Shown here: one piece after another, positions 4,970 to 62,548 of the stretch
How the letters are laid out: the number at the start of each line of letters is the position of its first letter
Position numbering within the stretch: the stretch's first letter is position 1
IMG/VR virus record: IMGVR_UViG_3300043438_000976
Span: 100,027 to 164,026 of that record
Length of the DNA: 64,000 bases
Strand: one strand, 5' to 3'
Source: a virus
Lineage: Duplodnaviria; Heunggongvirae; Uroviricota; Caudoviricetes
Translations under genes and position numbers: made by a program
Notes under the pieces: generated by a model
Told to the model about the DNA's origin: nothing
Databases searched by the model: none
The model's input: only the letters and a program-made list of their open reading frames with translations

Positions 4970-4974
4970 ATTAT

Positions 4975-5846: not shown

Positions 5847-5855
5847 ATGAATTGT

Positions 5856-5929: not shown

Positions 5930-5936
5930 ACAAAAT

Positions 5937-6009: not shown

Positions 6010-6010
6010 G

Positions 6011-6086
6011 CACCGCCGACGAGAATCGAACTCGCCTTGATCTCCTAGACAGGGAGGTGTAATACCCAGATTACTACGACGGTATA
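6011..6086 (-). tRNA. tRNA-Asp: tRNA-Asp (GUC)
   Basis: D-arm GUAA-UCUGGGUA-UUAC perfect; loop CUGUCUA; acceptor ACCGUCG/CGGCGGU paired; encoded CCA. Confidence 0.6.
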
Positions 6087-6089
6087 ATA

Positions 6090-6097
6090 CTTGCTAT
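6090..6097 (+). promoter_or_regulatory. T4 late-promoter-like box TATAAATA 10 nt upstream of the 6108 ORF
   Basis: exact TATAAATA octamer; spacing to ATG is short, so function uncertain. Confidence 0.25.
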
Positions 6098-6107
6098 AAA
6101 TATCGGA

Positions 6108-32095: not shown

Positions 32096-33322
32096 TTAAT
32101 CCTCGTAACGTTCTAATACTGCACAAGCAGCCCTGCCGCCGAATGCAAAATTGTTCTTTATTGCATACTTAGTTGCAATCACCGTGGCCTTGGTAGGAAT
32201 ATTGATTCCTACATCAATTGGGTTAGTTAAATTTACAGTAGGGGGTGATATTTGATCTCGTAGTGCTAACACAGTGTAGATAGTTTCAACAATTCCGCTT
32301 GCAGCCAACGTGTGTCCAATTTGTCCTTTATTTGCCGTCATTGTTGTGCCTGGCAACAACTCACGCATGGCATAAAATTCAATGTCATCTCCGACTTTAG
32401 TTCCGGTAGCGTGTGCATTAATATATCCGACATCGGCTAACTGTATGCCTGCTTGTTTTATTGCTCTGGTTACTGCTAACTTTGCAGCGTCACCGTTTTT
32501 ATCTGGGGCAGTATCATTATTACCAGCTGTGGCAATTCCCACAGACTTGATTATTCCGTAAATCTTTGCACCCCGTGCTTTGGCTTTATCTAACGGTTCG
32601 ATAATTAGTGTGCCAGCAGCTTCTCCTGCTACAAATCCTGATCTATCTTTGTCAAAAGGTCTACTGGCAATTTCTGCTGGTTGTAAACTTAATGCACCGA
32701 GATTTTGAAAGTAGTATACTTGGAAGCCTTCAATGGGTACGTCGGCACCTCCCACAATGACAGCATCGAGATCGTCATTAAATTCTAGTTGCTTAATAGC
32801 ATAATCAATACCAGTTAGTCCAGTTGAACATGCAGAGTGCATCGAAGTTGAACCACCGTTGCATTCGTATATCCTAGCAATCAATCCGCTAATGTAATCC
32901 GCAGTTGCTTGTATTACCTGCCTTGGTGAAACTCTTTCGCGGCCATCTTCTAGTTGTCGCATCATGTATGCTCTACTATGTAAACTTCCACCAGTGGTAC
33001 TAAACACTACTGAAACATTTTTGCTAGTAAGATTGCTGTCTCTGATAGCATCTCTAGCAGTGTGCATTGATATTTTAACACACGGATCCCAATACTGGTG
33101 ATGCCCTCCAAATTCTGCTTCTTCAAACGCAGGTAACGGACACGGTGCTCCAGAAGAGACAATTAAAGATTTATGTGTTCTTGGAAATTTTGTCGGATTA
33201 TCTTCAGGCCATTTGATCTGTTTAATTGCAGTTTCTCCTGCTAACAGATTTTTCCAGTTTTCTTGAACACTTGCACCTAGCCCATTAATGATTCCTATTC
33301 CAGTAACGGCGTATTGTTTCAT
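32096..33322 (-). CDS. fabF: beta-ketoacyl-ACP synthase II (FabF-like)
   Basis: active-site Cys region HSACSTG, His motifs NAHATGT and GHTLAASG; 408 aa. Confidence 0.85.
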   Translation of the reverse strand: MKQYAVTGIGIINGLGASVQENWKNLLAGETAIKQIKWPEDNPTKFPRTHKSLIVSSGAPCPLPAFEEAEFGGHHQYWDPCVKISMHTARDAIRDSNLTSKNVSVVFSTTGGSLHSRAYMMRQLEDGRERVSPRQVIQATADYISGLIARIYECNGGSTSMHSACSTGLTGIDYAIKQLEFNDDLDAVIVGGADVPIEGFQVYYFQNLGALSLQPAEIASRPFDKDRSGFVAGEAAGTLIIEPLDKAKARGAKIYGIIKSVGIATAGNNDTAPDKNGDAAKLAVTRAIKQAGIQLADVGYINAHATGTKVGDDIEFYAMRELLPGTTMTANKGQIGHTLAASGIVETIYTVLALRDQISPPTVNLTNPIDVGINIPTKATVIATKYAIKNNFAFGGRAACAVLERYED

Positions 33323-37271: not shown

Positions 37272-38075
37272 TCAGCGACCGCTAATGTTACCTAGAGCAG
37301 TCATATTGCTTGGAACAACAATAGTCTGTACCTTGCCGTTTTTAATACCTTCGGAGATATTAAGTTCAGCCTGTGCCCGCATAAACGCAATGGAACTAGT
37401 TGAGTTATTAGCCAATGCTGCCATACGACGCGATTCAGCTTCGGCGGTCTTAACTTCAATTTCCTTCTGCTTCAATTCGTTCTTGGATTTGACTAATTCA
37501 TTAGCACTGGCAACAACACTGTCAGCAGGTACTACGTTACGAATCAGCACTTGACTAATGGTGATAGAACCATCCAACTTTTCTTCTGTCAAATTACGAA
37601 TAACTTCTTCTTTGATAAAGTTTTCCATTTCACCACGATTGTCTGCCATGTCCAATGCTTCGTACTTACGTGCTGCCTTGTAGATAGCATTACGAGCATT
37701 TTGAACAATATAGTTATACATCACATAAGTGTCGCCTTTGAAATCAGCATGGAAACTCTTGTTCTTCGTTGAGTACAACTCTGCTACCTGAGCAGGGTTG
37801 ATGTTATACACAACCACAGCATCAAAGTCTTTCATTGTTGAGTTGTCTTTGGCCACAGGGGTCATGTCATTGAGTGTGACATTGACGTCCTTGATAGGGA
37901 ACGTCAAGATAGTACCAATTAGACTTTGGTTAAAGCTACCTGGCAACAGTTCGCCTGCCTGTACCTGCTTGTCGAAACCAACTCGAACACCGACCTCACC
38001 AGTCTCAATTCGAGTACATGCAGAAGTCAATGCAACTGCGGCGATAACAAAACCCAATTTAATCAAACGATTCAT
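37272..38075 (-). CDS. SPFH/band-7 (prohibitin-like) domain membrane protein
   Basis: lipoprotein/TM N-terminus then GEVGVRVGF... band-7-like region and C-terminal coiled coil; start set at MNRLIKLG. Confidence 0.4.
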   Translation of the reverse strand: MNRLIKLGFVIAAVALTSACTRIETGEVGVRVGFDKQVQAGELLPGSFNQSLIGTILTFPIKDVNVTLNDMTPVAKDNSTMKDFDAVVVYNINPAQVAELYSTKNKSFHADFKGDTYVMYNYIVQNARNAIYKAARKYEALDMADNRGEMENFIKEEVIRNLTEEKLDGSITISQVLIRNVVPADSVVASANELVKSKNELKQKEIEVKTAEAESRRMAALANNSTSSIAFMRAQAELNISEGIKNGKVQTIVVPSNMTALGNISGR

Positions 38076-38350
38076 TTTAAATAACTCCAGTAGTAAAAAG
38101 AAAGAAACAAACACTAAACCCAAGAACAAAATAAAGTGGCCGAAGCAACACATCATTAATCATATAAGTCCTTAAAAAATAATTACAATTCCAAACATTA
38201 GCAACATTGCTATTGTTGCACTAATTATAGCATACATTCCTGCTTTCGTCAAGAACAATGCCTGACTCCCTGTCATCTTTTGGACTCCTCGAATGCCAAA
38301 AAATATCAGCACTGCGAGGACCAAAAAGAGTAAAATTACTCCAATCATTT

Positions 38351-42887: not shown

Positions 42888-44327
42888 TTATTTGCGAGCG
42901 TTAGCTCGAACTTCCTCAAAGGTGTAATCTTTGTGCAGGTTGCCGTTCCAGTAAACTGGAACCAGTGCGTTGGTCCACCCGCCGATTCCCCGATCAGTCC
43001 AACCAGTAGGTTCAGTTACCCCTGATGCAAACTCGCCACCACTGTTAGTCCACAGTGTAACACGGCCTGCCTTAGACTTCTTGCCAGGATCAGTGACTGG
43101 GTCTTTGATCACATCAAACCATTCAGTTTTAAAACCAGATCCGAGATCACCATCTTCAACTCTAACAGTACGGCTCATTGCAGAGCACTTCATTGCAAAT
43201 TGTTGAGTATCACGATCTACAATCTGTAACAGAGCACCGCCCATACCAAAAGCAATGTTATCGGCACTCCAGCCCATGGCCATGAACGCACCGAGGATAC
43301 TGCGAACAGTAAGTTCGTTAATACCGTCACCTTGGATCAGTCTGACGTTGTTCAGGACTTTGAAGCCTTTGCTGTTAGTAGTGTATCCGAACTTGGATCC
43401 AAGGATCTCAACTAGCTTACGGTTGACTTCAACAGGATCGCCGCTATCAGGGCGAATGACAACAGTAGCACCACTATCGATAACTTGTTGGCGAAGTTCT
43501 TCGCCCCAGAGCTTAGAGGCTGCGTTGTAGATATCGTAACTATCACTAACAACAGCGAGGATAGTACCGGGACGAGCGAACTGAGTAAGCATATTTCTGT
43601 AAGCATCTACTTCACCGTCGCGACCCCAAGAAGTGATTGTGCTATGTTCGGCAGCAGGAATAGAAAACCCAGCAATGCCAGCTCCATAATACTCACGAGC
43701 GTAAAGAATACCAGTAATGGTATCCGTTCCCATAAAGTTAACGAGGTGAGCCGCAGAACCGATCCCAGCACTTTCGAGGCTAGATACACCGCGAGCACCA
43801 AAGTCGTGCAGTTTAAAATCAATAGTAGTAGGGTCACCTGTACGCTCCAAGTAGTCAAGAATGACTTGTTTAATTTTCCAGCTTTGTGTTGCCACAGTAG
43901 TACCGTACCACACTGCACGAAGCAGAGCAGTTTCCAACCAAGTGGTCAACCAATAACATTTTGGATCGGTATTCTCAATGGTAGCGAGTACGTTTTTGAC
44001 AGGGACAATAGTTCCTTCAGGGACTGCTCGGATAACAACGGGCAAGAATCCTTGGTGCTGGTCAAGAATATACTGCCATCCTTCTCTGTTAAAGGGTTCA
44101 CCGTGTAGGGTAAGAATTTCTTCAGCAATGTCAATATCTGCTTGTGTGATGGGTGCAAGTAGGTATTCCTTGATAAAAGCCTGTAGTCCGAAGAATACAG
44201 TTCTATCGTAACGCCCACCGCGTGATTCAATATATGAATATACACCTGTGGTTCCTGCTGGGTATTGTTTGAACATCGAGACTTTGTACGAGTCTGTGTT
44301 CAGGATAAGATTTTTTGCGAGTTTCAT
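42888..44327 (-). CDS. nadV: nicotinamide phosphoribosyltransferase NadV
   Basis: N-terminal ILNTDSYKVSMFKQYP hallmark of NAMPT; 479 aa. Confidence 0.85.
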   Translation of the reverse strand: MKLAKNLILNTDSYKVSMFKQYPAGTTGVYSYIESRGGRYDRTVFFGLQAFIKEYLLAPITQADIDIAEEILTLHGEPFNREGWQYILDQHQGFLPVVIRAVPEGTIVPVKNVLATIENTDPKCYWLTTWLETALLRAVWYGTTVATQSWKIKQVILDYLERTGDPTTIDFKLHDFGARGVSSLESAGIGSAAHLVNFMGTDTITGILYAREYYGAGIAGFSIPAAEHSTITSWGRDGEVDAYRNMLTQFARPGTILAVVSDSYDIYNAASKLWGEELRQQVIDSGATVVIRPDSGDPVEVNRKLVEILGSKFGYTTNSKGFKVLNNVRLIQGDGINELTVRSILGAFMAMGWSADNIAFGMGGALLQIVDRDTQQFAMKCSAMSRTVRVEDGDLGSGFKTEWFDVIKDPVTDPGKKSKAGRVTLWTNSGGEFASGVTEPTGWTDRGIGGWTNALVPVYWNGNLHKDYTFEEVRANARK

Positions 44328-44405
44328 TGTAAAGTTCCTTTACTTGTTATGCCAGGCGTCTATCGCTTGGACTTGTTTATAGTATAACACAGACCTATTT
44401 CTGCG

Positions 44406-44879
44406 TCAACTAATTCTTTGGCTAAATTCAACGAGTGTAACCTGACCACTTCGTTTAGCAATCTGGGCGGCAAACCGTTCGATCATATCCAAAATAGTTT
44501 CCTGGTCGCCACCGGCAAGTCCGCATCCAATGTAAGGCAATCCAATACGTTTGTTACCGTACATAAATGTTAATTTCTCAAGTATCAATTGAAATGCAGT
44601 GTACTCAAACACATCAGTACCTTGACTCATATTGTACTGAGTGTAGGCATTGATGATAATAAAAGTACCTTGGTCAAATTCTGTCCAGTTACCTAGTTTC
44701 ATATGATCGCCTTTGGCAGTTAGATTATCGATCTCTGCACACATTGGAAATCGTTCACGGATCTCTCGGGCAATGCCGCCGCCCATTGTGTTAAAGCAAT
44801 TACAGCCTTGTACCACAACATCGAACTCACCTGCTTCTGCTAGGTCGAGTAGATTACCTTTAGTATGTTTTAATGTCAT
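44406..44879 (-). CDS. macro-domain (ADP-ribose binding/processing) protein
   Basis: VVVQGCNCFNTMGGGIAREI resembles the macro-domain NAAN..GGGGV motif. Confidence 0.45.
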   Translation of the reverse strand: MTLKHTKGNLLDLAEAGEFDVVVQGCNCFNTMGGGIAREIRERFPMCAEIDNLTAKGDHMKLGNWTEFDQGTFIIINAYTQYNMSQGTDVFEYTAFQLILEKLTFMYGNKRIGLPYIGCGLAGGDQETILDMIERFAAQIAKRSGQVTLVEFSQRIS

Positions 44880-45133
44880 TCTTCAACTCCGAAATGTGAT
44901 TCTAATCTGCTGACAATGTCCGGAGCCACAACATCAGCATCCCATTCATTCTTAAAAATTATGGATGGATGGTCCTTACATTTTTTAATACATTCTCTCA
45001 CAATCAGTTCAGCGAACTTTTCCATCTTAAAAGCTAATACAACTGCATCAGGATCAAACATAAAGCCCACTCCAGCCTGTTCAGCAAGTTCTCTAATTCG
45101 TTCGTTCATAGTTTCTCTCCACAATGCGGACAC
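44876..45133 (-). CDS. small hypothetical protein, paralogue of 45339..45617 (both end HFGVEE)
   Basis: shared MNERIRELAEQ...VRECIKKC/VRECANVA...HFGVEE. Confidence 0.3.
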   Translation of the reverse strand: MSALWRETMNERIRELAEQAGVGFMFDPDAVVLAFKMEKFAELIVRECIKKCKDHPSIIFKNEWDADVVAPDIVSRLESHFGVEE

Positions 45134-45342
45134 TTCTTTGCTGAAGCATTACGCATTTCTTTCAGTGTCTTGTTGAGTTTACGAGCATCGGCCAGCTGAT
45201 GTTTAATCCACTTACGGTCTCTATCGTGTTTGGCCTTGCTCAATTCTTCTTTAAGGTGTAGCTTCATTTTGTTAAGCCTGCCCTCAAAGATTTCAATAAA
45301 GCCCGTTATGCCCGGGCTTTTGTCTGCCGGTGTACCATTCAT
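45106..45342 (-). CDS. hypothetical protein (78 aa) with C-terminal CPHCGEKL
   Basis: ORF, charged helical; overlapping start/stop with neighbours. Confidence 0.25.
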   Translation of the reverse strand: MNGTPADKSPGITGFIEIFEGRLNKMKLHLKEELSKAKHDRDRKWIKHQLADARKLNKTLKEMRNASAKKCPHCGEKL

Positions 45343-45617
45343 TCTTCAACTCCAAAATGTTCTCTAATCTCTTCGTAAATGTCCAAGGCATCATGATCAG
45401 CGGCAACATTAGCACATTCCCGAACAATCAACTCGGCGAACTTTTCCAAATCAATGTTATGTTCACTATACCGATGGTGGCACTGTTCGGCAAGTTCTTT
45501 AATTCGTTCGTTCATATTATGCTCCCAAGAAGTGTTGTATGATTTCGTAGTGGTCTTCGAAACATTCTTCACTGCGAACTTCGGCAATAGGAACCCAACG
45601 TGCTTTTTCAGCATCAT
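45339..45617 (-). CDS. small hypothetical protein, paralogue of 44876..45133
   Basis: see paralogue. Confidence 0.3.
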   Translation of the reverse strand: MMLKKHVGFLLPKFAVKNVSKTTTKSYNTSWEHNMNERIKELAEQCHHRYSEHNIDLEKFAELIVRECANVAADHDALDIYEEIREHFGVEE

Positions 45618-46539
45618 CGCCGCCTTTTACCTTTGGCAGCTCGCCGTCAGGCAGTTCAATGTGGAATGCGTGAGTGATAATACGACCTCGCGGACTACGG
45701 TCAACTGCATCAAAGACCTTACTACGTTTAATACTACCACGCAACACCGGAGCAGGAACTTTAATTAGTGTTTCTTCACGCAGTTCACGAATGGCTGCAT
45801 CCTCTACGCTTTTATCCGTATTGGCGTTAACATAGCCGCCTGGCAATGCCCACAATCCTTTACCGGGTTCAGCACGACGACGAATCATTAATACATGTCC
45901 TGAGCAGATAACCACAGCATCAGCAGTTGAGAAGATCGGAGGATACTTCAATCCAGCATATTGTTTATTGTGTTCTATGATGAACTCACGTTCGCGGATG
46001 ATCTGTTCGTATTGATCTGTGGTGCGGAACTGCTCCAAAAAGTCTAAAGTAGACTCTGGCACTACACCTTTAATGAACTTCATATTGACATCACGCTTGA
46101 AGTAGAGATCGCGAATGTTTACAGCACTGAGGAATTCTACTAATTCAACATCTTCATAGCCCCACTGTGGGAACATATCCAAGTAGAATGAGCTGTCATC
46201 TTTTTTATGACCGATAATGCCCACTCCGGCACCACCTAGTACACGGTATTTAGAAACAATACCTTGGACACGAACAGCCCATGCCTGATCGTTATAGATA
46301 GTGTCAATATTTGGCTCAACATAGATCTGCATAGCAAGTCCAGCAGTTGCTGACTTGATCATTCGAGCACGTTCATCGAATGTAAATGGGTTTTTATAAG
46401 TTCGGGGTTGTTTAGCACTACCGCAGATGATCACAAGTTGATCAGTTAGTGCTGTGGCTCGCTTGATAATCTCTAAGTGAGCTGAGTGAAGCGGTTGAAA
46501 ACGTCCGATGAGGACAAGGGTATCATATTTTTTTGACAT
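45517..46539 (-). CDS. natV: bifunctional NMN adenylyltransferase / Nudix hydrolase NatV (NadM-like)
   Basis: N-terminal LIGRFQPLHSAHLEII (H/TxGH NMNAT motif); C-terminal Nudix box ...RELREETL; 340 aa. Confidence 0.8.
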   Translation of the reverse strand: MSKKYDTLVLIGRFQPLHSAHLEIIKRATALTDQLVIICGSAKQPRTYKNPFTFDERARMIKSATAGLAMQIYVEPNIDTIYNDQAWAVRVQGIVSKYRVLGGAGVGIIGHKKDDSSFYLDMFPQWGYEDVELVEFLSAVNIRDLYFKRDVNMKFIKGVVPESTLDFLEQFRTTDQYEQIIREREFIIEHNKQYAGLKYPPIFSTADAVVICSGHVLMIRRRAEPGKGLWALPGGYVNANTDKSVEDAAIRELREETLIKVPAPVLRGSIKRSKVFDAVDRSPRGRIITHAFHIELPDGELPKVKGGDDAEKARWVPIAEVRSEECFEDHYEIIQHFLGA

Positions 46540-46641: not shown

Positions 46642-46857
46642 TTAGAAATCAAATAGACGTTTTTTTGGAACAATGAACTCTTTGGCTATTCTTGATCCTT
46701 CTAGTCTTACTGCTGGATCCGGACTATTAAGCATTTCGTTGATCAATGCAGTTTTTGCCATATCGCCCATTGTTCGATCTCTGCTGATGCTTTTTTCTAA
46801 ATCTAGATTTGAAGCACATCCTGTTAGCATCAATGCAAGAATTACTGCAAATTTCAT
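46642..46857 (-). CDS. small lipoprotein
   Basis: lipobox LMLTGCAS. Confidence 0.3.
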   Translation of the reverse strand: MKFAVILALMLTGCASNLDLEKSISRDRTMGDMAKTALINEMLNSPDPAVRLEGSRIAKEFIVPKKRLFDF

Positions 46858-47112: not shown

Positions 47113-47331
47113 TCATTTATTCTGTTGGTCTATTACTGGTGCAATCTTTGTAGTTTCTTCTTCCGTCATAAAACGAGTAGAAGGATGTTCTGCCCATTTA
47201 AAGAATTGCACTGGTTTCCAATACTTATGCAGTAGATTGTTGATTACCAATACTGCACCAATTACTACAATAAAACCTAACATTGTTAAAATACTGCCTG
47301 CTAACCAGGTCGCTGCTTGATCCATAGTCAT
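47113..47331 (-). CDS. hypothetical single-pass membrane protein
   Basis: TM segment ILTMLGFIVVIGAVLVINNLL. Confidence 0.25.
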   Translation of the reverse strand: MTMDQAATWLAGSILTMLGFIVVIGAVLVINNLLHKYWKPVQFFKWAEHPSTRFMTEEETTKIAPVIDQQNK

Positions 47332-47395
47332 GATAAAATTCTTTCTGTATGTTTATCTAATACTTTAACAAATTTTTTTAATTTTGTCAACTCCA

Positions 47396-47635
47396 TTATA
47401 ACCACCTTAATAAAAACATTGTTAAATGTTTAGCATCCTTGAAGGCAAATGTAGTATTACCAAACATACTATGCATGACCCAAATCTTACCATTCATGCC
47501 TTCCCAAGTTTCAGGAGTCTGATAGGACCAACCACCGGTTCCTACATGTTCGTGGCACCATTGTTCCATGTCTGGATGTTGCCAATACCGTTCTTTACCA
47601 AATGTAATCCAGCTTGCTGTATCACTCACGACCAC
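47396..47635 (-). CDS. MF(I/L)LRW-tail small protein, tandem paralogue 5 of 5 (79 aa)
   Basis: C-terminal FAFKDAKHLTMFLLRWL; W-rich; overlaps neighbour by about 10 nt. Confidence 0.35.
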   Translation of the reverse strand: MVVSDTASWITFGKERYWQHPDMEQWCHEHVGTGGWSYQTPETWEGMNGKIWVMHSMFGNTTFAFKDAKHLTMFLLRWL

Positions 47636-47907
47636 CTCAGAATAAACATAGTCATGTCCTTCTCACTTTTGAAATAGAATTTACGTTCTTTTTCAAACCA
47701 ACGAGCACCACTCTTACCAAACTGATCTCGACACCATTCAGTGGCTAACTCAGTTGTGTTTTCGTATTTGTTTTGATCAGTAACAGGAAGACTAACCCAA
47801 TGATACTCACCAATCCAACCTTTGGCCTTGCCAGTTTGCATTGGCTGGATTTCGGGCTCTGTTTCAGCACTGCCAATAATAGTATTAATACTGGCCATTA
47901 TGCCCAC
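47626..47907 (-). CDS. MF(I/L)LRW-tail small protein, tandem paralogue 4 (93 aa)
   Basis: C-terminal FYFKSEKDMTMFILRWS. Confidence 0.35.
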   Translation of the reverse strand: MGIMASINTIIGSAETEPEIQPMQTGKAKGWIGEYHWVSLPVTDQNKYENTTELATEWCRDQFGKSGARWFEKERKFYFKSEKDMTMFILRWS

Positions 47908-48221
47908 CTCAGAATAAACATTGTACGATCCTTTTCATTTCGGAACCAAAATTTAGCATTGTTAGCATACCAACGCATGTTAGGTGTCCAGACTCCGTCG
48001 TGTGCTGTGGGTCCAAATGTCTTTACTGTCCAATCCATCATTTCATTCCAGTGCCAGCCGTTGTTAGGATGTACAGTTAGATATCGAGAACCGTAAACAG
48101 TACCTTCGCTTAGTTCTAGTTTGTGCCACCCCATTGTGGTCATTAGTAACTCATCGTCAATAGCTTTAGCCATTTGGCGAGCTGCTTCGTTAATTACACT
48201 TTGTTCAATATTCATGACCAC
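47898..48221 (-). CDS. MF(I/L)LRW-tail small protein, tandem paralogue 3 (107 aa)
   Basis: C-terminal FWFRNEKDRTMFILRWA. Confidence 0.35.
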   Translation of the reverse strand: MVMNIEQSVINEAARQMAKAIDDELLMTTMGWHKLELSEGTVYGSRYLTVHPNNGWHWNEMMDWTVKTFGPTAHDGVWTPNMRWYANNAKFWFRNEKDRTMFILRWA

Positions 48222-48439
48222 CTCAACATAAACATCAGCTTGTCTTGCTCATGGGCAAAACAAAATCTATACTTGCCCGGGCTATCTCTTCCGCCCCAAA
48301 ACATTGACCAACGCCCGGATTGAAAACCTATTACTTCCCAACGCTGTCCGAACTGTTGGGCACACCATCGTCCTGCCTTATTGTGTAGTCCGGAGTCTAG
48401 AAATACTTCATAATCCAAGTGAGTACGATTCATGACCAC
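48212..48439 (-). CDS. MF(I/L)LRW-tail small protein, tandem paralogue 2 (75 aa)
   Basis: C-terminal FCFAHEQDKLMFMLRWS. Confidence 0.35.
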   Translation of the reverse strand: MVMNRTHLDYEVFLDSGLHNKAGRWCAQQFGQRWEVIGFQSGRWSMFWGGRDSPGKYRFCFAHEQDKLMFMLRWS

Positions 48440-48618
48440 CTCAACAAAAACATCATGTGATCTTTTGGATCTGCAAAATAAATTTTAGGATGCTTGTACA
48501 TCCAACGGTAACCGTCACCCGGACCGAATTTAAGTTGTAGCCACTCAAACATTTCTGCAGGTGGTATCTTAAATGTGTGTAACTCAACAACATGATACTC
48601 GTGATCAACTAATATCAT
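48430..48618 (-). CDS. MF(I/L)LRW-tail small protein, tandem paralogue 1 (62 aa)
   Basis: C-terminal YFADPKDHMMFLLRWS; start overlaps peptidase stop. Confidence 0.35.
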   Translation of the reverse strand: MILVDHEYHVVELHTFKIPPAEMFEWLQLKFGPGDGYRWMYKHPKIYFADPKDHMMFLLRWS

Positions 48619-49391
48619 CGCAAATCCGTATCTGTTATGTTATTGTACATGATTTCTTTGGCAATTTTAAGTCGCTCTAATTTATTTCTAGCACCTAAAA
48701 TTACTATGACATATTTTTGTCCACCCTGTTCTACAACCATACCTAAACACCAACCTGCAGGATTAGTTAGTCCTGTTTTAGTCACAACAATATTGTCAAA
48801 CTCAAATAATAATTCTTTGTTGGTATTTGGTAATTCGATCTTACGTATTTTCTTTTTAAATCGATGATCAAACAATGCCTGTTTCTTTACACTAATTTCT
48901 CGGATAATAGGATACTCTGAACTTGCCAACAGTAAGCGTTTAACTCCGAGCAATGTTGTAACATTCTTAGAATCGAGTCCACTCGGATCTCCAAAATTAG
49001 CGTTAGGCATATTGAGTAATATAGCCTTAGCGTTCATAGCTGCCAAAAAGGCACTGCGACCTCCGGGGTAATCTGCTGCTAATGTTTCGGCAGCATCGTT
49101 GTCACTGCGAATCAACATGGCGTGCATCACCTCTCCTCGTGTCCACGTACCTCGAGGCAGTATTCCTCCGACTTTGCCTGCAGATTTTAATGTGCGGGTA
49201 AGGTCTTTGTCATAATCTAACGTAACCATAGCAGTCATTAGTTTAGTAATACTGGCAATAGGACGAACAGTGTCTGCATTAGATTGAATTAGGTGGTGTC
49301 CGGTAGTATCGTTGTACAGCAACACACTTTGAGGTAACGGTTTAGCCCAAACAGATCCGCAAACTAGCATCAATAATAAAAAGCGAGTCAT
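48615..49391 (-). CDS. D-alanyl-D-alanine carboxypeptidase/endopeptidase (peptidase S11, PBP-like)
   Basis: signal peptide; SxxK motif IASITKLMTA; SDN-like RSDNDAAE; KTG motif VVTKTGLT. Confidence 0.55.
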   Translation of the reverse strand: MTRFLLLMLVCGSVWAKPLPQSVLLYNDTTGHHLIQSNADTVRPIASITKLMTAMVTLDYDKDLTRTLKSAGKVGGILPRGTWTRGEVMHAMLIRSDNDAAETLAADYPGGRSAFLAAMNAKAILLNMPNANFGDPSGLDSKNVTTLLGVKRLLLASSEYPIIREISVKKQALFDHRFKKKIRKIELPNTNKELLFEFDNIVVTKTGLTNPAGWCLGMVVEQGGQKYVIVILGARNKLERLKIAKEIMYNNITDTDLR

Positions 49392-50739: not shown

Positions 50740-51768
50740 CTATTTGTCAATAGGGTTTTGTATCCAAATGATCTCTTTTGGCTCGTATGGAAATAATTTA
50801 CCTTGTGTGTCATGGACAGGTTTGATAGCGATTAGGCAACGACCATTAAACTTTTCTAATAGTATTTCGTGTACTTCTTTAGCATATTCCAAATTACCCG
50901 GGTCTACCATTAAGCGGATTCGAATAAAATTCTCAGCCTTATTTCGAATAGCAGCATCTATACTTTTTACAAACTTTTCAATCCCTAAAGTTTTTAAGTA
51001 ATTCAAATGTAAACTAAAGCATAGATCGCTAACCTGTGCCAGCTCTGCATAATAGGCAGCATCTCTACTACCGTTTGTTGTAGTGATAGATCCATGACCG
51101 TCTTTTCTTAAGGTTTTAACAAATGGCAGATAGTCTTTATATACAGTCAGTTCTCCGCCTAGCATACTGAACTTAGTAGGTTCACCTTTGATCCATTGAG
51201 TTGATAATATATTGTAAGCAGACATCAAAGTGTCGTAATCTTTGTGTGCTTCAAAGTTATTGTGATCGCTTTCTGGACAATACCAGCAGTCAAAGTTACA
51301 TCTACGGCCTATGGCCCATGTTATGGTTTTATAATTGTAGTTGGTTGAATATACAACTTCTGCGTCTACTTTGGGCAATTTGTAGTTAAGATCGAATTCT
51401 CTAATTTTATTAGAATCAAAAAATCTCAGTATGCTTTCTTGATGCTTTACCTTAGGCACAGCCATATCTGCACCGCAAGAACATATCTGCTTTCCGCAAA
51501 CTGTCCATTTATTACCTATTGCAATGTCTAACGGAATGGATTTCTTGTATACGTTAGCAACTACCCCACCTTCCCTGCAGGTTCCTCGTACTACATTTCC
51601 TTCATAATCAATATAGAGCGATCGAAGGCCAATTGCACAATGCCAGCCCTTCCAAAATGACAGATCTTTACTTAATACAGATTCTACTGTATGCGTAGTG
51701 TAGTTTAAATCGTCGTCTAACAGCACTATGTCTTTACCGTCAAATTCAATTTCAGTTGTTTTAGCCAT
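50740..51768 (-). CDS. radical SAM domain protein
   Basis: CNFDCWYC (Cx3Cx2C) cluster motif; 342 aa. Confidence 0.45.
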   Translation of the reverse strand: MAKTTEIEFDGKDIVLLDDDLNYTTHTVESVLSKDLSFWKGWHCAIGLRSLYIDYEGNVVRGTCREGGVVANVYKKSIPLDIAIGNKWTVCGKQICSCGADMAVPKVKHQESILRFFDSNKIREFDLNYKLPKVDAEVVYSTNYNYKTITWAIGRRCNFDCWYCPESDHNNFEAHKDYDTLMSAYNILSTQWIKGEPTKFSMLGGELTVYKDYLPFVKTLRKDGHGSITTTNGSRDAAYYAELAQVSDLCFSLHLNYLKTLGIEKFVKSIDAAIRNKAENFIRIRLMVDPGNLEYAKEVHEILLEKFNGRCLIAIKPVHDTQGKLFPYEPKEIIWIQNPIDK

Positions 51769-51809
51769 TGCTTACCTTTTGAATATTTATATGGTTAAAT
51801 ACTAACATT

Positions 51810-53003
51810 ATGATAAAGCCAAAAACACAAGACGCTATAGGACAGAGTTTGGAAAAACTCAAGACTGAAGGAAATTATCGAGTATTCACTGATATCCTTC
51901 GTGAACGAGGAGAATTTCCGAAAGCGGTTTACTATGGCAAATACAATATCAAACACATAACCAACTGGTGCTCAAATGACTACTTGGGCATGGGCCAGCA
52001 CAAAGTAGTATTGGACGCAATGCACACAGCATTAGATACAGCAGGTGCAGGTTCGGGAGGCACACGAAACATTTCAGGAACTACACATTATCATGTAGCA
52101 CTTGAATGGGAGTTAGCCAAGCTGCATGACAAGACCAGTGCGTTATTGTTCACTAGCGGATATGTGGCCAATCAAGCTGCATTGAGTGTTATGGGTCGCA
52201 TGATACCCGGAGCACATTACATTAGTGATAGTAATAATCATAACAGTATGATTGTAGGAATGAAAAGCAGTCAAGCACCTGTTACAGTTTGGCGACACAA
52301 TGATCTTGCACACTTAAAAGAAATACTACAGACTATGTCTATTGACGCACAACCTATCATTACAATGGAAGGTGTATATTCTATGGACGGAGATAAAGGA
52401 CTGATTAGTGATGTTTGTGATATTGCTCGATTATACGGTGCAATGGTTTATGTTGACGAAGTACATGCTGTAGGACTATATGGCAGTCGCGGTGCCGGAG
52501 TTGCCGAAGAGCAGAGATGCGTAGAAGGTGTTGACGTGTTTCAAGGAACACTGGCCAAAGCCTACGGAGTTCAAGGAGGCTATATTGCCGCCGGGCGTGA
52601 CTTAATTGATATGGTACGCAGTTATGCACAAGGCTTTATCTTTAGCACATCCATGAGCCCGGTACTATGTGCCGGGGCATTGGCCAGTGTTAAGTACGTT
52701 GCAGATCATCCTGAACTTAGAACACGAATTTTTAATGTAGCACAACAAACTAAAGAACATTTATTGTCAAACGATATCGACGTGATGCCAGGTGATACGC
52801 ACATTGTTCCTATTATGATTCGCGATGCTAGAAAATGCAAACATATCAGTGACTGGCTATTAGAAGAACGTGCTATATATCTTCAGCCCATCAACTATCC
52901 AACGGTACCTTGGGGTGCAGAACGACTTCGTGCAACTCCAACTCCTAATCACACAGAAGCAGACATTGATTATCTAACACGAAGTTTAAAGGAAATATTA
53001 TGA
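51810..53003 (+). CDS. hemA: 5-aminolevulinate synthase (ALAS, alpha-oxoamine synthase family)
   Basis: WCSNDYLGM, GAGSGGTRNISG, YVDEVHAVGLYGSRGAGV and FQGTLAKAYGVQGGYIAA (PLP Lys) closely match ALAS signatures. Confidence 0.8.
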   Translation: MIKPKTQDAIGQSLEKLKTEGNYRVFTDILRERGEFPKAVYYGKYNIKHITNWCSNDYLGMGQHKVVLDAMHTALDTAGAGSGGTRNISGTTHYHVALEWELAKLHDKTSALLFTSGYVANQAALSVMGRMIPGAHYISDSNNHNSMIVGMKSSQAPVTVWRHNDLAHLKEILQTMSIDAQPIITMEGVYSMDGDKGLISDVCDIARLYGAMVYVDEVHAVGLYGSRGAGVAEEQRCVEGVDVFQGTLAKAYGVQGGYIAAGRDLIDMVRSYAQGFIFSTSMSPVLCAGALASVKYVADHPELRTRIFNVAQQTKEHLLSNDIDVMPGDTHIVPIMIRDARKCKHISDWLLEERAIYLQPINYPTVPWGAERLRATPTPNHTEADIDYLTRSLKEIL

Positions 53004-53419
53004 ATAAAATTAAAAAAGCATTTTGGGTAACACTGGGATTTATATTCCTAGGCATTGCCTACATCGGAATCGTAACTCCGGGTATCCCGTGGTCGACTCC
53101 CACAGTGATTGCCGCATTCTGTTTTGCTAGAGGAAGCGAACGTATGCACAACTGGATTATGAATCACAAGTTATTTGGACCGTTCTTGAGCAACTGGGGC
53201 GAGAAGCGTGTGTTCCCCACTAAGGCCAAATGGGCCATGTTCATTACTATGGATTGTAGCTTACTAATTATTTGGTTTACTACCTATAATTGGAAAGCGG
53301 TAGCAGGCACAGGATTGTTTATGATGCTGTGTGCTGTGTGGGCTTGGCGTTATCCAGGCAGCGTTGAAGAATGGCAACACCGTATATCAAACGGTCTCAA
53401 AGTCGGCTGGTTCAAGTAA
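53000..53419 (+). CDS. DUF454 (YbaN-like) inner-membrane protein
   Basis: LGFIFLGIAYIGIVTPGIPWSTP...FCFARGSERMHNW pattern of YbaN family; ATGA-coupled to ALAS. Confidence 0.4.
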   Translation: MNKIKKAFWVTLGFIFLGIAYIGIVTPGIPWSTPTVIAAFCFARGSERMHNWIMNHKLFGPFLSNWGEKRVFPTKAKWAMFITMDCSLLIIWFTTYNWKAVAGTGLFMMLCAVWAWRYPGSVEEWQHRISNGLKVGWFK

Positions 53420-53617
53420 CTCTGCGTTCCACCTAAGAGACATAAGGAGTGCATCTTTACGGCTCTTAAAAATGAATTCCATGTAATTGACGTTTGCCCG
53501 GGTTTCAAATCGATCTCCGGGCAAACCAAAGTACTCAATTGCCCATATACATACTTCGTTCCACATCTTCTCGTTTTCAAATTCACGAGACCAATGAATT
53601 TTAACAATTACTGACAC
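53387..53617 (-). CDS. sixth member of the W-rich ...LRW small-protein family (76 aa)
   Basis: YFGLPGDRF...FIFKSRKDALLMSLRWNAELLEP resembles the tandem array at 47396-48618. Confidence 0.3.
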   Translation of the reverse strand: MSVIVKIHWSREFENEKMWNEVCIWAIEYFGLPGDRFETRANVNYMEFIFKSRKDALLMSLRWNAELLEPADFETV

Positions 53618-55270: not shown

Positions 55271-55415
55271 AGTGTTGACGTTTAACTACATCAATTAGTT
55301 TTCCAGAGTCTTCTACTTTCTTTTTGAATTTTCTAAGGGCAACGTTAACATTGTCATCCTTAACTTCAACACTAAGACCTTTATTATTGTTTCTTTTCAT
55401 TTTCTTTTTTGTCAA
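55170..55415 (-). CDS. hypothetical basic protein (81 aa), overlaps neighbour
   Basis: K/R-rich; overlaps 54902 ORF in another frame. Confidence 0.2.
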   Translation of the reverse strand: MTKKKMKRNNNKGLSVEVKDDNVNVALRKFKKKVEDSGKLIDVVKRQHFEKPTTEKKRKKGAARARWLKKLRDESLPKKMY

Positions 55416-56622
55416 AAATTAGCACAGCCGGCTTTCCTTCGACTGTTTCTTTACTTATCACAATTTTGGTTAAACCACGGGCTACAAGATCCATGGCTTC
55501 GAATTGATAACGTAAAAGTATTTTTTCCAAAATATTCTTGAGACCACGTGCGTTAGTCTCCATTAACTTTGCCTGTTCGGCGATTGCACCTAATGCACTA
55601 TCTTCAATTTGAAGTTCAACTCCGTCTAGTTCAAAGATATACTGATATTGTTGTAATAGACTGTTTTTTGGCTCTTTAAGGATTTGCACTAATTGTTCAG
55701 TTGTTAGCTCATCAACTGATGTAGCTGTACCAAAACGACCTACAAATTCTGGGATTAATCCAAAGCTGATTAGGTCTTTAGTAGTAACTTCTTTGAAAAG
55801 ATCTTTCTTTTCATCTTTGCCTTTTAGTTTGCTGCCAAAACCTACTGAGCTAGTAGTGGTTCTACGTGCTACAATTTTATCCAGTCCCACAAATGCACCG
55901 CCGCAAATGAACAGAATATTTTGAGTATCAATTTCGTTCATCTCACCGCGTGGATGTTTGCGTTTTTCACCTGCTGGCAGTCTAACCACACTGCCTTCAA
56001 TCATTTTCAACAGCCCTTGTTGGACGCCTTCGCCTGATACGTCACGAGTGATACTGGCACTTTCACCTTTGCGGCTAATCTTGTCAATTTCATCAATATA
56101 TATAATGCCGTGCTCTGCTTTCTTGATATCACCATCAGCATTGCCAACTAGACGTACAAGAACACTTTCGACATCGTCTCCAACGTATCCTGCTTCAGTA
56201 AGTCCAGTAGCATCACAGATTGCAAATGGTACATCTAAGTACTCGGCTAGTTTTTTAACCAGCATGGTTTTGCCGCAGCCAGTTGGACCCATCATCAGCA
56301 CATTAGTCTTGTCAATTTCAATGTTACGATTATTTTTAGCAATACGTTTGAAGTGCTGACATACTGCTACCGCCAGTGCCATTTTAGCATCAGCTTGTCC
56401 GATCACGTATTCATCGAGATATTCTTTAACTCGAACTGGATTAAGCAACTGAGCAGAATCTGTAGGGAATTTTTTAACCTTGTCGTCTTTGAGAATGTCA
56501 AGACACAGGTCAACGCATTCATTACAAATTGCAATGTTGTCACCGCCAACAATTAGTTTTTCAACTTCTTCTTTACTCTTACCGCAGAAACTGCAACTGG
56601 GAGTGTGATCTTTATTTGCCAA
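55384..56622 (-). CDS. clpX: ATP-dependent Clp protease ATP-binding subunit ClpX
   Basis: N-terminal C4 zinc finger CSFCGKS...CNECVDLC, Walker [11 protein letters not shown], Walker [10 protein letters not shown], sensor/arginine fingers; 412 aa. Confidence 0.9.
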
Positions 56623-61825: not shown

Positions 61826-62548
61826 TTAGTTCCAGTACTTTGACGAATCTAACCGGTCCCAATATTCTTGATTATTACGATTGATAAAGTTTTTAATGAG
61901 ATACCATCCCATTCCAAAATATCCCATCTTCTTAAACCTTCGACTATCTTGTCCAAAATAATGATTTAATATTTTGAATTTTTTAGGGCTATACTGCCTA
62001 GATAAAAAATAGTCCTCAGATGTTACTGTTTTTTCAGGAAACCCACCTAGTTCTTCAAAACGATCTCTACGAGTTAGCATAAATGCACCAATAGCAAACG
62101 GTGAGAAATATTTTAGAATATTGTTTATAACGTTAAAAAGTGTAAATCCGATCTTTGCTCGAATGTCTTGATCATAGCATTTGAGGTTTAGTCCGATAAG
62201 ATCTAAGTTCTTTGACTCTATTTCAGCAACAGCATCCCGGATAACCGTATCCTTAAAGAAACGTACATCAGCATCAATGAATAAAATATATGGAGTAGTA
62301 ACTAGCCGTGCTCCGTTGTTCTTGGCAGTAGAAACAGGGCCGCCTTCAATAACTTCAACATTGAGATTTCCCTTGGATACTTGAATAACTTCACGAGTGT
62401 TGTCCGTTGAACAATCTGCAATAATGATTCTGGTACTACCTATCATTTGATTACGTAAGTGCGTTAATAGATACGGAATGTAATTTTCCTCATTCTTACA
62501 AGGAATTACAATAGTAATTTTATCACTGAATTTCATTGTTTCTTGCAT
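61826..62548 (-). CDS. glycosyltransferase family 2
   Basis: ITIVIPCKNEE...DADV (DxD) GT-A motifs. Confidence 0.6.
   Translation of the reverse strand: MQETMKFSDKITIVIPCKNEENYIPYLLTHLRNQMIGSTRIIIADCSTDNTREVIQVSKGNLNVEVIEGGPVSTAKNNGARLVTTPYILFIDADVRFFKDTVIRDAVAEIESKNLDLIGLNLKCYDQDIRAKIGFTLFNVINNILKYFSPFAIGAFMLTRRDRFEELGGFPEKTVTSEDYFLSRQYSPKKFKILNHYFGQDSRRFKKMGYFGMGWYLIKNFINRNNQEYWDRLDSSKYWN

What the first reader, a model, noticed from the sequence alone, without database searches (positions are those of the whole stretch)
47396..48618. Tandem array of five overlapping small genes of a novel W-rich family ending MF(I/L)LRW(S/A/L), with a sixth copy at 53387-53617
Five consecutive ORFs of 62-107 aa each overlap the next by about 10 nt (translational coupling). 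They share a C-terminal signature (F/Y)xF(K/R)xEKDxxMFxLRW and are Trp-rich with a conserved (Q/E)(F/W)G motif. A more distant paralogue lies 5 kb away next to dexA. I know of no characterised domain with this signature. Tandemly diversified small proteins in phages are often anti-defence or host-takeover effectors.
Basis: seen in the sequence. Interest (0 to 1): 0.7.

Follow-up and report, generated by a model that had tools for sequence, protein, structure and literature searches.

The report
Undescribed small-protein gene array in phage
Five back-to-back small genes, plus a sixth nearby, in a giant uncultured phage belong to a large, phage-only protein family that no database describes; the codons of its conserved tail also form the ribosome-binding site of the next gene, and what the proteins do is still unknown.

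Summary
Six minus-strand genes (g1-g5 at 47396-48618, g6 at 53387-53617) are the only window members of one family. They are real genes: dN/dS is 0-0.23 against near-identical strains.

The family is large and only found in viral or unbinned metagenome sequence:
- 1,415 clusters at 50% identity in 1.84 billion proteins
- 2 hits in 185,579 cellular species genomes, both short MAG contigs
- no Pfam, NCBIfam, PADLOC or PDB-sequence match

- Likely starts give overlaps of 4, 4, 1 and 4 nt, not about 10.
- The paralogues are ancient subfamilies shared by divergent phages, not recent local diversification. Arrays elsewhere reach 18 copies.
- The ..LRW(S) tail is dual-coding. CTG-AGG-TGG-TCA-TGA contains a GAGGTGG Shine-Dalgarno and the next ATG. 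AGG is used for that Arg in 65/89 cases against 6% elsewhere (p=3e-43).
- The same junction is the breakpoint of a one-gene copy-number difference between strains.

Function is unknown. My best guess is diversified protein-binding accessory factors. The anti-defence reading is untested.

The parts
48430..48618 (-). g1, 62 aa, minimal family member. Its ATG overlaps the stop of the S11 peptidase gene (ATGA).
   Evidence: HMM E=1.6e-13. It is 100% identical to P0019, which is seen on 56 contigs.
48212..48433 (-). g2, 73 aa, family member with a long insert between helix 1 and strand 2 (FGQRWEVIGFQSGRWSMFWGG).
   Evidence: E=8.4e-16. Orthologue-like genes occur in 8 other loci.
47898..48215 (-). 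g3, 105 aa, family member with an N-terminal helix extension (AARQMAKAIDDELL) and a GTVYG..Y.TV hairpin.
   Evidence: E=4.4e-17. Orthologue-like genes occur in 16 loci. dS is 0.38-0.42 against about 0.1 in the flanks.
47626..47898 (-). g4, 90 aa, family member with an N-terminal beta-hairpin (QPMQTGKAKGWIGEYHWV).
   Evidence: E=3.3e-27. AlphaFold model pLDDT 87, topology beta-beta-alpha-beta-beta-alpha.
47396..47629 (-). g5, 77 aa, GTG start, the most Trp-rich member (9.1%).
   Evidence: (E=4.8e-12). dS is 1.09 against strains L003/L004.
53387..53617 (-). g6, 76 aa, GTG start. This is the most widespread subfamily. LRW is internal and is followed by a C-terminal strand and tail.
   Evidence: E=2.7e-37. 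AlphaFold model pLDDT 82.7, beta-alpha-beta-beta-alpha-beta. In relatives L006-L010 this type directly heads the tandem array.
48436..48442 (-). GAGGTGG Shine-Dalgarno inside the L-R-W codons of g1. It serves the g2 ATG at 48433.
   Evidence: (anti-SD duplex -8.5 kcal/mol)
48218..48224 (-). GAGGTGG inside the L-R-W codons of g2. It serves the g3 ATG at 48215.
   Evidence: (-8.5 kcal/mol)
47904..47910 (-). GAGGTGG inside the L-R-W codons of g3. It serves the g4 ATG at 47898 (TAATG junction). It is also the breakpoint of the one-gene (197-bp) indel relative to strains L003/L004.
   Evidence: (-8.2 kcal/mol)
47632..47638 (-). GAGGTGG inside the L-R-W codons of g4. It serves the g5 GTG at 47629.
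   Evidence: (-8.4 kcal/mol)
47402..47408 (-). AAGGTGG inside the L-R-W codons of g5, followed by TAATG and a 22-codon ORF.
47328..47396 (-). Possible 22-codon bridging ORF (MELTKLKKFVKVLDKHTERILS). It runs from the TAATG junction with g5 to the ATGA junction with the 72-aa membrane-protein gene, and it overlaps a promoter-like site.
   Evidence: Read directly from the sequence. Promoter-like TTGACA-17-TAAAGT at 47390-47362. Not called by the source gene callers.
48615..49391 (-). Upstream gene of the same co-directional block: S11 D-Ala-D-Ala carboxypeptidase-like, 258 aa. It is not a family member.
   Evidence: PF00768
50722..50750 (-). Best sigma-70-like promoter match upstream of the co-directional block that ends with g1-g5 (TTGACA-17-TATACT, 11/12, extended -10 TG). 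This is a consensus match only.

Best explanation
SHOWN. g1-g6 are genuine protein-coding genes of a large, old, phage-restricted family of small, soluble, mostly acidic single-domain proteins.
- The domain has a conserved aromatic core: W in helix 1, an FG-x-G-x-R(W/F/Y) turn, an F-x-F strand, and a D-capped last helix ending LRW.
- The predicted fold is a two-layer alpha/beta sandwich. The fourth strand is supplied either C-terminally (g6) or by an N-terminal hairpin (g4).
- g1-g5 are the 3' end of a co-directional gene block and are built for translational coupling. The last three sense codons (L-R-W) spell (C/T)TGAGGTGG, a strong Shine-Dalgarno. The final codon ends in A, so with TGA or TAA it creates the next start (TCATGA or xxATAATG).
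- The protein's C-terminal helix is therefore also the initiation module for the next gene. In one strain comparison the same junction is the breakpoint of a one-gene copy-number difference.

INFERRED. The domain is a stable scaffold, and its variable parts give each subfamily its own partner. Those parts are the N-terminal extension, the helix1-strand2 insert and the surface residues. The array would supply a co-expressed set of small binding or modulating proteins acting on host or phage proteins during infection, as accessory 'takeover' functions. These could include anti-defence but are not shown to. The SD-containing junction makes members portable cassettes that can be gained, lost or swapped without losing expression.
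For: Real genes:
- dN/dS is 0-0.23 against strains 85-97% identical in DNA.
- The HMM finds six and only six members in the window.
- 951 database relatives have E<=0.01, and 1,415 clusters at 50% identity have E<=0.001.

Phage-restricted:
- 30 IMG/VR loci carry the family.
- Only 2 short MAG contigs were hit among 185,579 species genomes.
- The top BFVD matches are uncharacterised proteins of uncultured Caudovirales.

Fold:
- AlphaFold models have pLDDT 82.7 and 87.0.

Coupling:
- Junction sequences were read directly.
- The four starts that follow a family member have the strongest anti-SD pairing, equalled only by the 71-aa gene at -8.3 kcal/mol, of the 24 genes at the locus: -8.2 to -8.5 kcal/mol.
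- The terminal Arg codon is AGG in 65/89 cases against 31/521 for other Arg codons of the same genes (p=3e-43).
- Of 114 unique members ending [RK]W plus at most 2 aa, 82 have a 4-nt or 1-nt stop/start overlap. That includes 61/65 of those using AGG.
- In the window, AGG occurs only at the LRW arginine.
- The last residue is Ser in 36/69 of the diverse members that end one residue after [RK]W, which fits TCA+TGA.

Cassette dynamics:
- Strains L003 and L004 carry an extra 66-aa member.
- The indel breakpoints lie in the shared TGAGGTGG. The left flank matches 60/60 and the right flank 56/60.
- g3 and g5 show dS of 0.38-1.09 against about 0.1 in the flanks, which indicates allele replacement.

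Old, distinct subfamilies: each has orthologue-like genes in 3-25 divergent loci, and arrays hold 3-18 copies per locus.

Protein binding rather than nucleic-acid binding: median pI is 5.7, and 86/150 representatives have pI<6. There are no hydrophobic segments.

Non-late region: only two TATAAATA motifs occur in 64 kb, and there are sigma-70-like promoter matches.
Against: - No partner, phenotype or expression data exist. The functional part rests on analogy with small accessory proteins of T4-type phages (established knowledge, not tested here).
- There is no positive selection at whole-gene level, which is weaker support than expected for arms-race effectors.
- g6 also uses AGG at its internal LRW, where no gene starts, so the SD role does not explain every AGG.
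- Many genes in this phage have weak or no SD, so coupling by reinitiation might not strictly need it.
- The promoter and late-motif scans are consensus matches only.
- The cassette gain/loss mechanism rests on a single indel.
Confidence: 0.4

Rival explanations
1. The paralogues are subunits of one hetero-oligomeric assembly. Translational coupling exists to deliver them in fixed stoichiometry, and the exposed face of each small sheet is a subunit interface.
For: - The genes are tightly coupled and co-directional.
- Most members lack a fourth strand or borrow it from an extension, which leaves a sheet face free.
- Several subfamilies co-occur repeatedly in divergent phages.
Against: - Copy number and subfamily composition vary widely between phages (3-18 per locus), and even between near-identical strains. 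That is unusual for an obligate complex.
- g6 is separated from the array by about 4.8 kb here.
Confidence: 0.15
2. They are small RNA- or DNA-binding regulators, using the open beta-sheet face as RRM, SUI1 or ACT-like domains do, and acting for example on translation or mRNA stability.
For: - Aromatic residues are abundant on the strands.
- Two members are basic: g2 has pI 9.2 and the 66-aa type has pI 10.
Against: - Most members are acidic: median pI is 5.7, and only 28/150 have pI>8.
- No RRM, KH or SUI1 Pfam match reaches threshold. There is one SUI1 hit at E=0.008 among 132 members.
- The conserved aromatic residues look like core residues rather than an RNP-type surface motif (inference).
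Confidence: 0.1
3. The family acts on the capsid pathway or on capsid sensing. Members bind or mimic parts of the gp23-type major capsid protein, as assembly helpers, as prohead-targeted cargo, or as decoys for host factors that recognise the conserved Gol-like segment.
For: - Four divergent members (P0255, P0268, P0294, P0349) carry at their N-terminus a ~30-aa copy of the most conserved gp23 segment. P0255 aligns to T4 gp23 residues 98-124.
- P0255 and P0349 are 73-90% identical to real capsid-protein fragments of the same phage group over that segment.
Against: - Only 3 of about 310 family sequences tested carry the segment, plus P0349.
- None of the window genes does. g4 scores E=9.8 against an HMM of the segment, and g3 against T4 gp23 gives BLASTP E=1.9.
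- The fusions sit among replication and recombination genes, not by capsid genes.
- That this segment equals the mapped Gol peptide is from my memory plus the review's general statement, not from coordinates I could verify.
Confidence: 0.1
4. The genes are largely selfish or neutral passengers. They are cassettes that spread and persist because their conserved 3' end guarantees expression and recombination, with little benefit to the phage.
For: - Copy number varies between strains, with the breakpoint inside the junction.
- Alleles are replaced at g3 and g5.
- Arrays reach 18 copies.
- dN/dS is somewhat higher than in neighbouring metabolic genes: 0.1-0.23 against 0.00-0.06.
Against: - Purifying selection acts on every member.
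- Subfamilies are conserved at 28-71% identity across very divergent phages.
- There is no associated nuclease or integrase, and nothing shows autonomous mobility.
Confidence: 0.1
5. The ORFs are chance reading frames, or the repeated junction is a non-coding RNA or DNA element.
For: The junctions form a 5-copy direct DNA repeat.
Against: - HMM E-values go down to 1e-37.
- There are hundreds of homologues.
- Substitution patterns are purifying.
- AlphaFold models are confident.
- There is no Rfam match at E<=0.1.
Confidence: 0.01

Closest known systems
Hyperplastic-region gene cassettes of T4-type phages flanked by PeSL motifs (Arbiol et al. 2010, PMC2839356; Comeau et al. 2014, PMC4122927)
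   Same: - Small genes of unknown function are clustered in plastic regions of T4-related genomes.
- They are gained, lost and swapped between close relatives by recombination at short conserved motifs that also carry expression signals.
   Different: - Here the conserved motif is not an intergenic promoter plus stem-loop. It is the last ~8 codons of the coding sequence itself, an SD plus start for the next gene.
- The genes overlap, and no intergenic stem-loops were found.
- The cassettes are all homologous to one another.
Translationally coupled overlapping genes (ATGA / TAATG junctions with the SD inside the upstream gene), common in phage and bacterial operons
   Same: The stop/start overlap and an upstream in-frame SD are the same at four consecutive junctions.
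   Different: The SD is fixed in a family-defining protein motif (LRW). It recurs in most of 114 unique members from many phages and leaves a codon-usage footprint. So it is a property of the family rather than of one operon.
Generic two-layer alpha/beta sandwich domains: ferredoxin-like (ACT, RRM, MzrA, de novo designed ferredoxins) and the DCoH/pterin-4a-carbinolamine dehydratase beta-beta-alpha-beta-beta-alpha fold
   Same: The predicted secondary-structure order and packing are the same. g6 is beta-alpha-beta-beta-alpha-beta, and g4 is beta-beta-alpha-beta-beta-alpha.
   Different: - There is no Pfam match.
- None of those families' functional motifs was detected.
- The resemblance is at fold level only.
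Small early/accessory proteins of T4-type phages and anti-defence loci (for example Arn, IPI*, Dmd, anti-CRISPR operons); established knowledge, not tested here
   Same: - The proteins are small, soluble and non-structural.
- They are encoded in variable regions, vary in presence between strains, and are co-transcribed in runs.
   Different: - There is no sequence or specific structural similarity to any of them in the libraries available.
- There is no positive-selection signal.
- No defence-related neighbour was seen.
Gol segment of T4 gp23, the cofactor of the Lit protease (review PMC3014915)
   Same: Four distant family members start with a near-exact copy of the homologous capsid-protein segment.
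   Different: The window genes lack it. No Lit-like partner or EF-Tu link was examined.

Membership tests
Any curated protein family (Pfam-A 2025, NCBIfam 20, PHROGs v4, PADLOC 2.0, PDB sequences) | A profile match above the family threshold | tested here: not met
   - The six window proteins have no hit above cut-off. The best are DUF459 at E=0.035 and PHROG hits at E>0.1.
- A profile of 67 members against PDB sequences gives a best E of 0.047.
- Among 132 diverse members scanned against Pfam, the only match passing a gathering cut-off is the gp23 piece, which scores E<0.01 in four members and passes its cut-off in two.
Ferredoxin-like fold (beta-alpha-beta-beta-alpha-beta) | The order of secondary-structure elements, with two helices packed on one face of a 4-stranded antiparallel sheet | tested here: met
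   - The g6 model (pLDDT 82.7) has E3-8, H16-30, E37-41, E45-50, H53-62, E66-68.
- This is fold-level only and rests on a prediction.
DCoH / pterin-4a-carbinolamine dehydratase-like fold | Beta-beta-alpha-beta-beta-alpha topology plus the family's sequence profile or catalytic histidines | tested here: inconclusive
   - The g4 model has the topology.
- There is no Pfam PCD match.
- Catalytic residues were not examined.
RRM / ACT / SUI1 domains | A family profile match (RNP1/RNP2 motifs, the ACT ligand loop, or the SUI1 profile) | tested here: not met
   - No such Pfam match was found for the window proteins.
- One sub-threshold SUI1 hit (E=0.008) appears among 132 members.
- The family is mostly acidic.
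PeSL-type mobile regulatory cassettes of T4-type phages | An intergenic early promoter plus stem-loop/terminator motif flanking each cassette | tested here: not met
   - The genes overlap by 1-4 nt, so there are no intergenic spacers.
- Two terminator-like matches lie inside the array (48264-48239 on the coding strand, 47822-47834 on the opposite strand), but both are in coding sequence and none sits between genes, which overlap; the region holds 6 matches against 7.0 expected.
- Recombination at a conserved flanking motif is nonetheless seen.
Translationally coupled gene array | Stop/start overlap and an SD for the downstream gene inside the upstream coding sequence | tested here: met
   - The junctions are ATGA, ATGA, TAATG and GTGA, each preceded by GAGGTGG.
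- Anti-SD pairing is -8.2 to -8.5 kcal/mol.
- There is family-wide codon and overlap statistics.
- Actual coupling in vivo is not testable with these tools.
gp23 (Gol-region) fragment fusions | An N-terminal IRRVMP..A..L.GVQPM segment matching PF07068 positions ~2-37 | tested here: not met
   - P0255 and P0268 pass the Pfam cut-off.
- For the window genes, an HMM of the segment gives g4 E=9.8 and nothing for the others.
Known anti-defence proteins (anti-CRISPR, anti-RM, anti-CBASS and others) | Homology to a characterised inhibitor, or demonstrated inhibition of a defence system | not testable with these tools
   - No anti-defence library was available. PADLOC holds defence proteins, not counter-defence ones.
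- PDB sequence and fold searches returned no anti-defence protein among the top hits.

The most novel reading that the evidence does not exclude
The family is a phage 'plug-and-play' effector cassette system. Its conserved C-terminal helix has been fixed jointly as a fold element, as the ribosome-binding site and start of the next gene, and as a recombination site, so new binders can be inserted into or removed from a polycistronic array without any regulatory sequence. Some members display an exact copy of the capsid protein's most conserved (Gol-like) peptide and act as decoys or blockers of capsid-sensing host immunity.
Probability: 0.1. Interest if true: 0.8.

Novelty: new variant of a known kind. 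Interest (0 to 1): 0.5.

Why it matters
- A domain family with more than 1,400 sequence clusters, confined to phages and present at up to 18 copies per locus, has no entry in Pfam, NCBIfam or PADLOC. The six window genes match no PHROG. Defining it would annotate thousands of 'hypothetical' genes in aquatic viromes.
- The dual use of a conserved protein tail as the translation-initiation signal of the next gene is a clean, testable example of overlapping protein and nucleotide constraints. It also warns that C-terminal 'motifs' in phage proteins can be partly RBS footprints.
- If the proteins prove to be target-specific binders, the array is a ready catalogue of small modulators of host functions.
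- The rare capsid-peptide fusions offer a concrete entry point for experiments.

Tried and rejected
- **Known domain:** scans of Pfam, PHROGs, NCBIfam, PADLOC and PDB sequences were all negative for the window proteins.
- **Cultured-phage relatives:**
  - megablast of the region found nothing.
  - tblastn with g4, P0165, P0188, the HMM consensus and P0268 against 50,697 phage records found no family member.
  - The first 50 kb of Synechococcus phage B23, the closest NadM relative, has none.
  - Two guesses at which members hit PHROGs failed.
- **Positive selection or recent diversification:** rejected. dN/dS is at most 0.23, and the subfamilies are old.
- **Derivation of the domain or of the g3/g4 extensions from gp23:**
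  - BLASTP of g3 against T4 gp23 gives E=1.9.
  - The HMM of the capsid segment against g4 gives E=9.8.
  - Local hhalign gave a meaningless 5-column alignment, and the tool's own profile comparison failed. This is not supported.
- **RNA element:** no Rfam match.
- **Further members among neighbouring small ORFs:** none.
- **Scan of cellular genomes with the broad alignment A3:** failed because it has no conserved stretch. It was repeated with A2.
Full report
**1. What is there**

The minus strand of 47396-48618 carries five consecutive ORFs, and 53387-53617 carries a sixth.

- Their alignment shows invariant W26, G32, G36, F48, L59, R60 and W61 (g1 numbering) at 27-44% pairwise identity.
- An HMM built from them and their database relatives finds exactly these six in all six frames of the window, with E from 2.7e-37 to 4.8e-12. 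The next best ORF has E=0.32.
- Trp makes up 4.8-9.1% of residues. The proteins are hydrophilic and have no hydrophobic segment.

**2. Gene boundaries and junctions**

The mechanical ORF list starts four of the genes at a GTG that lies inside the sequence AGGTGG.

The sequence reads ..ATG TTT ATT CTG AGG TGG TCA TGA.. at the junctions. The L-R-W codons spell GAGGTGG, and the last sense codon plus the stop spell TCATGA, which contains the next ATG.

Independent gene calls on an identical contig (L001, 100% over 12,189 nt) and on related contigs give products of 62, 73, 105, 90 and 77 aa. The overlaps are thus 4, 4, 1 and 4 nt (ATGA, ATGA, TAATG, GTGA). g1 itself begins in an ATGA overlap with the upstream S11 peptidase gene.

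Among the 24 genes called at this locus, the four starts preceded by a family member pair most strongly with the anti-SD, matched only by the 71-aa gene at -8.3 kcal/mol. They score -8.2 to -8.5 kcal/mol against +1.2 to -6.5 for 19 of the other 20.

**3. The C-terminal signature is dual-coding**

I analysed 114 unique family members from the window and 34 fetched loci that end [RK]W plus at most two residues.

- 70 have an ATGA/GTGA overlap with the next start, and 12 have a TAATG-type overlap.
- The terminal Arg is encoded by AGG in 65 of 89 cases. AGG makes up only 31 of 521 other Arg codons in the same genes (Fisher p=3e-43).
- 61 of the 65 AGG users have an overlapping downstream start, against 21 of 49 users of other codons.
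- In the window, AGG is used once per gene, always at LRW.
- Of the 69 diverse representatives that end one residue after [RK]W, 36 end in Ser, as expected for TCA+TGA.

The motif is still also a protein feature. K (AAA) replaces R in many members. In the g6 subfamily LRW is internal and is followed by another strand.

One loose end remains. g6 also uses AGG although no gene starts there. Across loci, internal-RW members use AGG less often, in 4 of 10 Arg codons.

**4. Size, spread and novelty of the family**

- A profile search of 5.8 billion proteins returned 951 relatives at E<=0.01. The 120 listed are 62-98 aa; all are 'hypothetical' or unnamed and none has a Pfam domain.
- An exhaustive HMMER search of 1.84 billion cluster representatives found 1,415 clusters at E<=0.001. 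The best 150 are 46-138 aa, and the domain is almost always at the extreme C-terminus.
- Pfam, NCBIfam, PADLOC and PDB-sequence searches are negative.
- The window proteins hit no PHROG. A minority of distant members hit assorted PHROGs of unknown function, which I could not resolve.
- Five tblastn queries found no member in 50,697 deposited phage genomes.
- A scan of one genome per 185,579 bacterial and archaeal species found two hits. Both are short MAG contigs (Polynucleobacter and Crocinitomicaceae bins) that themselves carry arrays, so they are probably mis-binned phage DNA.

**5. Structure**

- AlphaFold2 with family alignments gives g6 a beta-alpha-beta-beta-alpha-beta fold (pLDDT 82.7).
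- g4 gets an N-terminal hairpin followed by alpha-beta-beta-alpha (pLDDT 87.0). The fourth strand of the sheet therefore comes from different ends of the chain in different subfamilies.
- Foldseek against BFVD finds uncharacterised proteins of uncultured Caudovirales (E down to 6.7e-7) and weak hits in jumbo phages such as Atu_ph07.

The conserved residues are aromatic or hydrophobic, Gly in turns, and one Asp at a helix cap. By inference this is a structural core rather than an active site.

**6. Genomic behaviour**

- In 30 IMG/VR loci the family forms co-directional tandem arrays of 3-18 copies within at most 16 kb. For example, L034 has 18 and L031 (a 264-kb contig) has 10.
- Each window paralogue has orthologue-like counterparts in 3-25 divergent loci at 28-71% identity. 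That is closer than the window paralogues are to each other, so the subfamilies are ancient. The g6 count is inflated because loci were ascertained with a g6-like pattern.
- In relatives L006-L010 the g6 type directly heads the array, downstream of the same ClpX and DexA-like genes, with DUF454 and ALA-synthase genes present in some. In the window lineage about 4.8 kb now separates g6 from g1. That stretch holds the radical-SAM gene, three unknown genes and the S11 peptidase gene.
- A DexA-like exonuclease is near the arrays in many loci.

**7. Selection and exchange**

Compared with strains L003 and L004 (85-97% DNA identity), all six genes show purifying selection, with dN/dS of 0-0.23. Neighbouring metabolic genes show 0.00-0.06.

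g3 and g5 have dS of 0.38-1.09 where the flanks have about 0.1. This indicates replacement by diverged alleles rather than local adaptive change.

L003 and L004 carry an additional 66-aa member between g3 and g4. The window sequence matches L003 60/60 to the left of the g3 GAGGTGG and 56/60 to the right of the 66-aa gene's GAGGTGG. The 197-bp unit was therefore gained or lost by recombination within the junction motif. The five junctions are detectable as a 40-nt direct repeat family.

**8. Context and timing**

The window comes from a large phage. The identical protein occurs on a contig of 380,947 bp.

- It carries 34 tRNA genes and many bacterial-type accessory genes.
- Its NadM-NAMPT pair is closest to T4-like cyanophages of the Kyanoviridae, at 52% identity.
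- The T4 late-promoter motif TATAAATA occurs only twice in 64 kb, once upstream of the radical-SAM gene.
- The best sigma-70-like match lies at 50750-50722, upstream of the co-directional block that ends in g1-g5. These are consensus matches only.
- No Rfam family matches the region.

**9. A side lead**

Four distant members (P0255, P0268, P0294, P0349) begin with a ~30-aa copy of the most conserved segment of gp23-type capsid proteins.

- P0255 aligns to T4 gp23 residues 98-124.
- Over that segment, P0255 and P0349 are 73-90% identical to genuine capsid fragments of the same phage group.
- P0255 and P0268 pass the Pfam Gp23 cut-off on that piece alone.
- They lie among replication and recombination genes.
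- A review describes the Gol region of gp23 as its most conserved part and as an EF-Tu ligand (PMC3014915). That the two segments coincide is my recollection, not a verified coordinate.

The window genes do not carry this piece. Resemblances of the g3 and g4 extensions to gp23 are not significant.

**10. Interpretation**

Firmly established:
- a real, old, phage-only, undescribed domain family;
- a generic alpha/beta sandwich fold (predicted);
- a gene architecture built for translational coupling, in which the family's C-terminal motif encodes the next gene's SD and start;
- one documented gain or loss at that junction.

The function is inferred. The evidence is acidic, soluble, core-conserved but surface- and loop-variable small proteins, kept as distinct subfamilies and co-expressed from a non-structural region. 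This fits best with a set of target-specific binding or modulating accessory proteins.

The evidence does not single out anti-defence. Alternatives are listed with their tests: a hetero-oligomeric complex, nucleic-acid binding, a capsid-related role, and largely selfish cassettes.

The closest described phenomenon is PeSL-mediated cassette shuffling in T4-type hyperplastic regions (PMC2839356, PMC4122927). This array differs in that the shared motif is coding, the genes overlap, and all cassettes are homologous.

Noticed in passing
window 275-8351 (minus strand): A dense block of 34 tRNA genes covers most amino acids. It includes a long Ile-tRNA with anticodon TAT and one tRNA with an unassigned anticodon.
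   Followed up: no
window 10913-12232(+), 19385-21439(-), 23355-25100(-), 25097-26212(-), 27057-27971(-), 32096-33322(-), 37272-38156(-), 55384-56622(-), 61826-62548(-): The phage carries an unusual load of bacterial-type accessory genes: a DegT aminotransferase, a CHASE2 sensor fused to an adenylate/guanylate cyclase, an F5/8 type C domain protein, FecR-like, a CsgG-like secretion channel, beta-ketoacyl synthase, an SPFH/Band 7 protein, ClpX and a GT2 glycosyltransferase.
   Followed up: partly
window 42888-46539(-) and 50740-53003: There is an NAD salvage pair, NAMPT (42888-44327) and NadM-Nudix (45517-46539), in the same order as in T4-like cyanophage B23. There is also a 5-aminolevulinate-synthase-like aminotransferase (51810-53003, +), a DUF454 membrane protein and a radical-SAM gene.
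   Followed up: partly
window 44876-45133(-) and 45339-45617(-): A second pair of small paralogues shares MNERI(R/K)ELAEQ..EKFAELIVREC.. and the same C-terminal HFGVEE. The codons of that tail contain GGAG just upstream of the next gene's start. This may be a second case of a C-terminal motif doubling as an SD.
   Followed up: partly
window 47328-47396(-): A 22-codon ORF would link g5 (TAATG) to the 72-aa membrane-protein gene (ATGA). It overlaps a promoter-like TTGACA-17-TAAAGT site, so it could be a coupling ORF, a promoter, or both.
   Followed up: no
P0255 (L040 6805-7131), P0349 (L039 8001-8387), P0268, P0294: Distant family members carry an N-terminal, nearly exact ~30-aa copy of the most conserved segment of gp23-type major capsid proteins. 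P0255 aligns to T4 gp23 residues 98-124, probably the Gol region. P0255 and P0349 sit next to recombination and replication genes rather than capsid genes.
   Followed up: partly
L003 6727-6927, L004 6724-6924: Strains about 95% identical to the window carry a seventh family member (66 aa, RRLKKQLWPH.. type) between g3 and g4. The same subfamily recurs in 14 divergent loci.
   Followed up: yes
L034 150-9474; L031 5677-8356: Other uncultured phages hold much larger arrays of the same family: 18 hits in about 9.5 kb in L034, and 10 in 2.7 kb in L031 (on a 264-kb contig). Almost all are overlapping and co-directional.
   Followed up: partly
window 46642-46857(-), 47113-47331(-): Just downstream of the array are a predicted lipoprotein (MKFAVILALMLTGC.., lipobox) and a 72-aa single-pass membrane protein. 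Neither is a family member.
   Followed up: no
L037 (Polynucleobacter MAG contig), L038 (Crocinitomicaceae MAG contig): The only 'cellular' hits are short MAG contigs that carry tandem family members (two clear hits in L037, five in L038). They are probably phage contigs binned with freshwater bacteria and give only a weak hint at habitat or host.
   Followed up: partly
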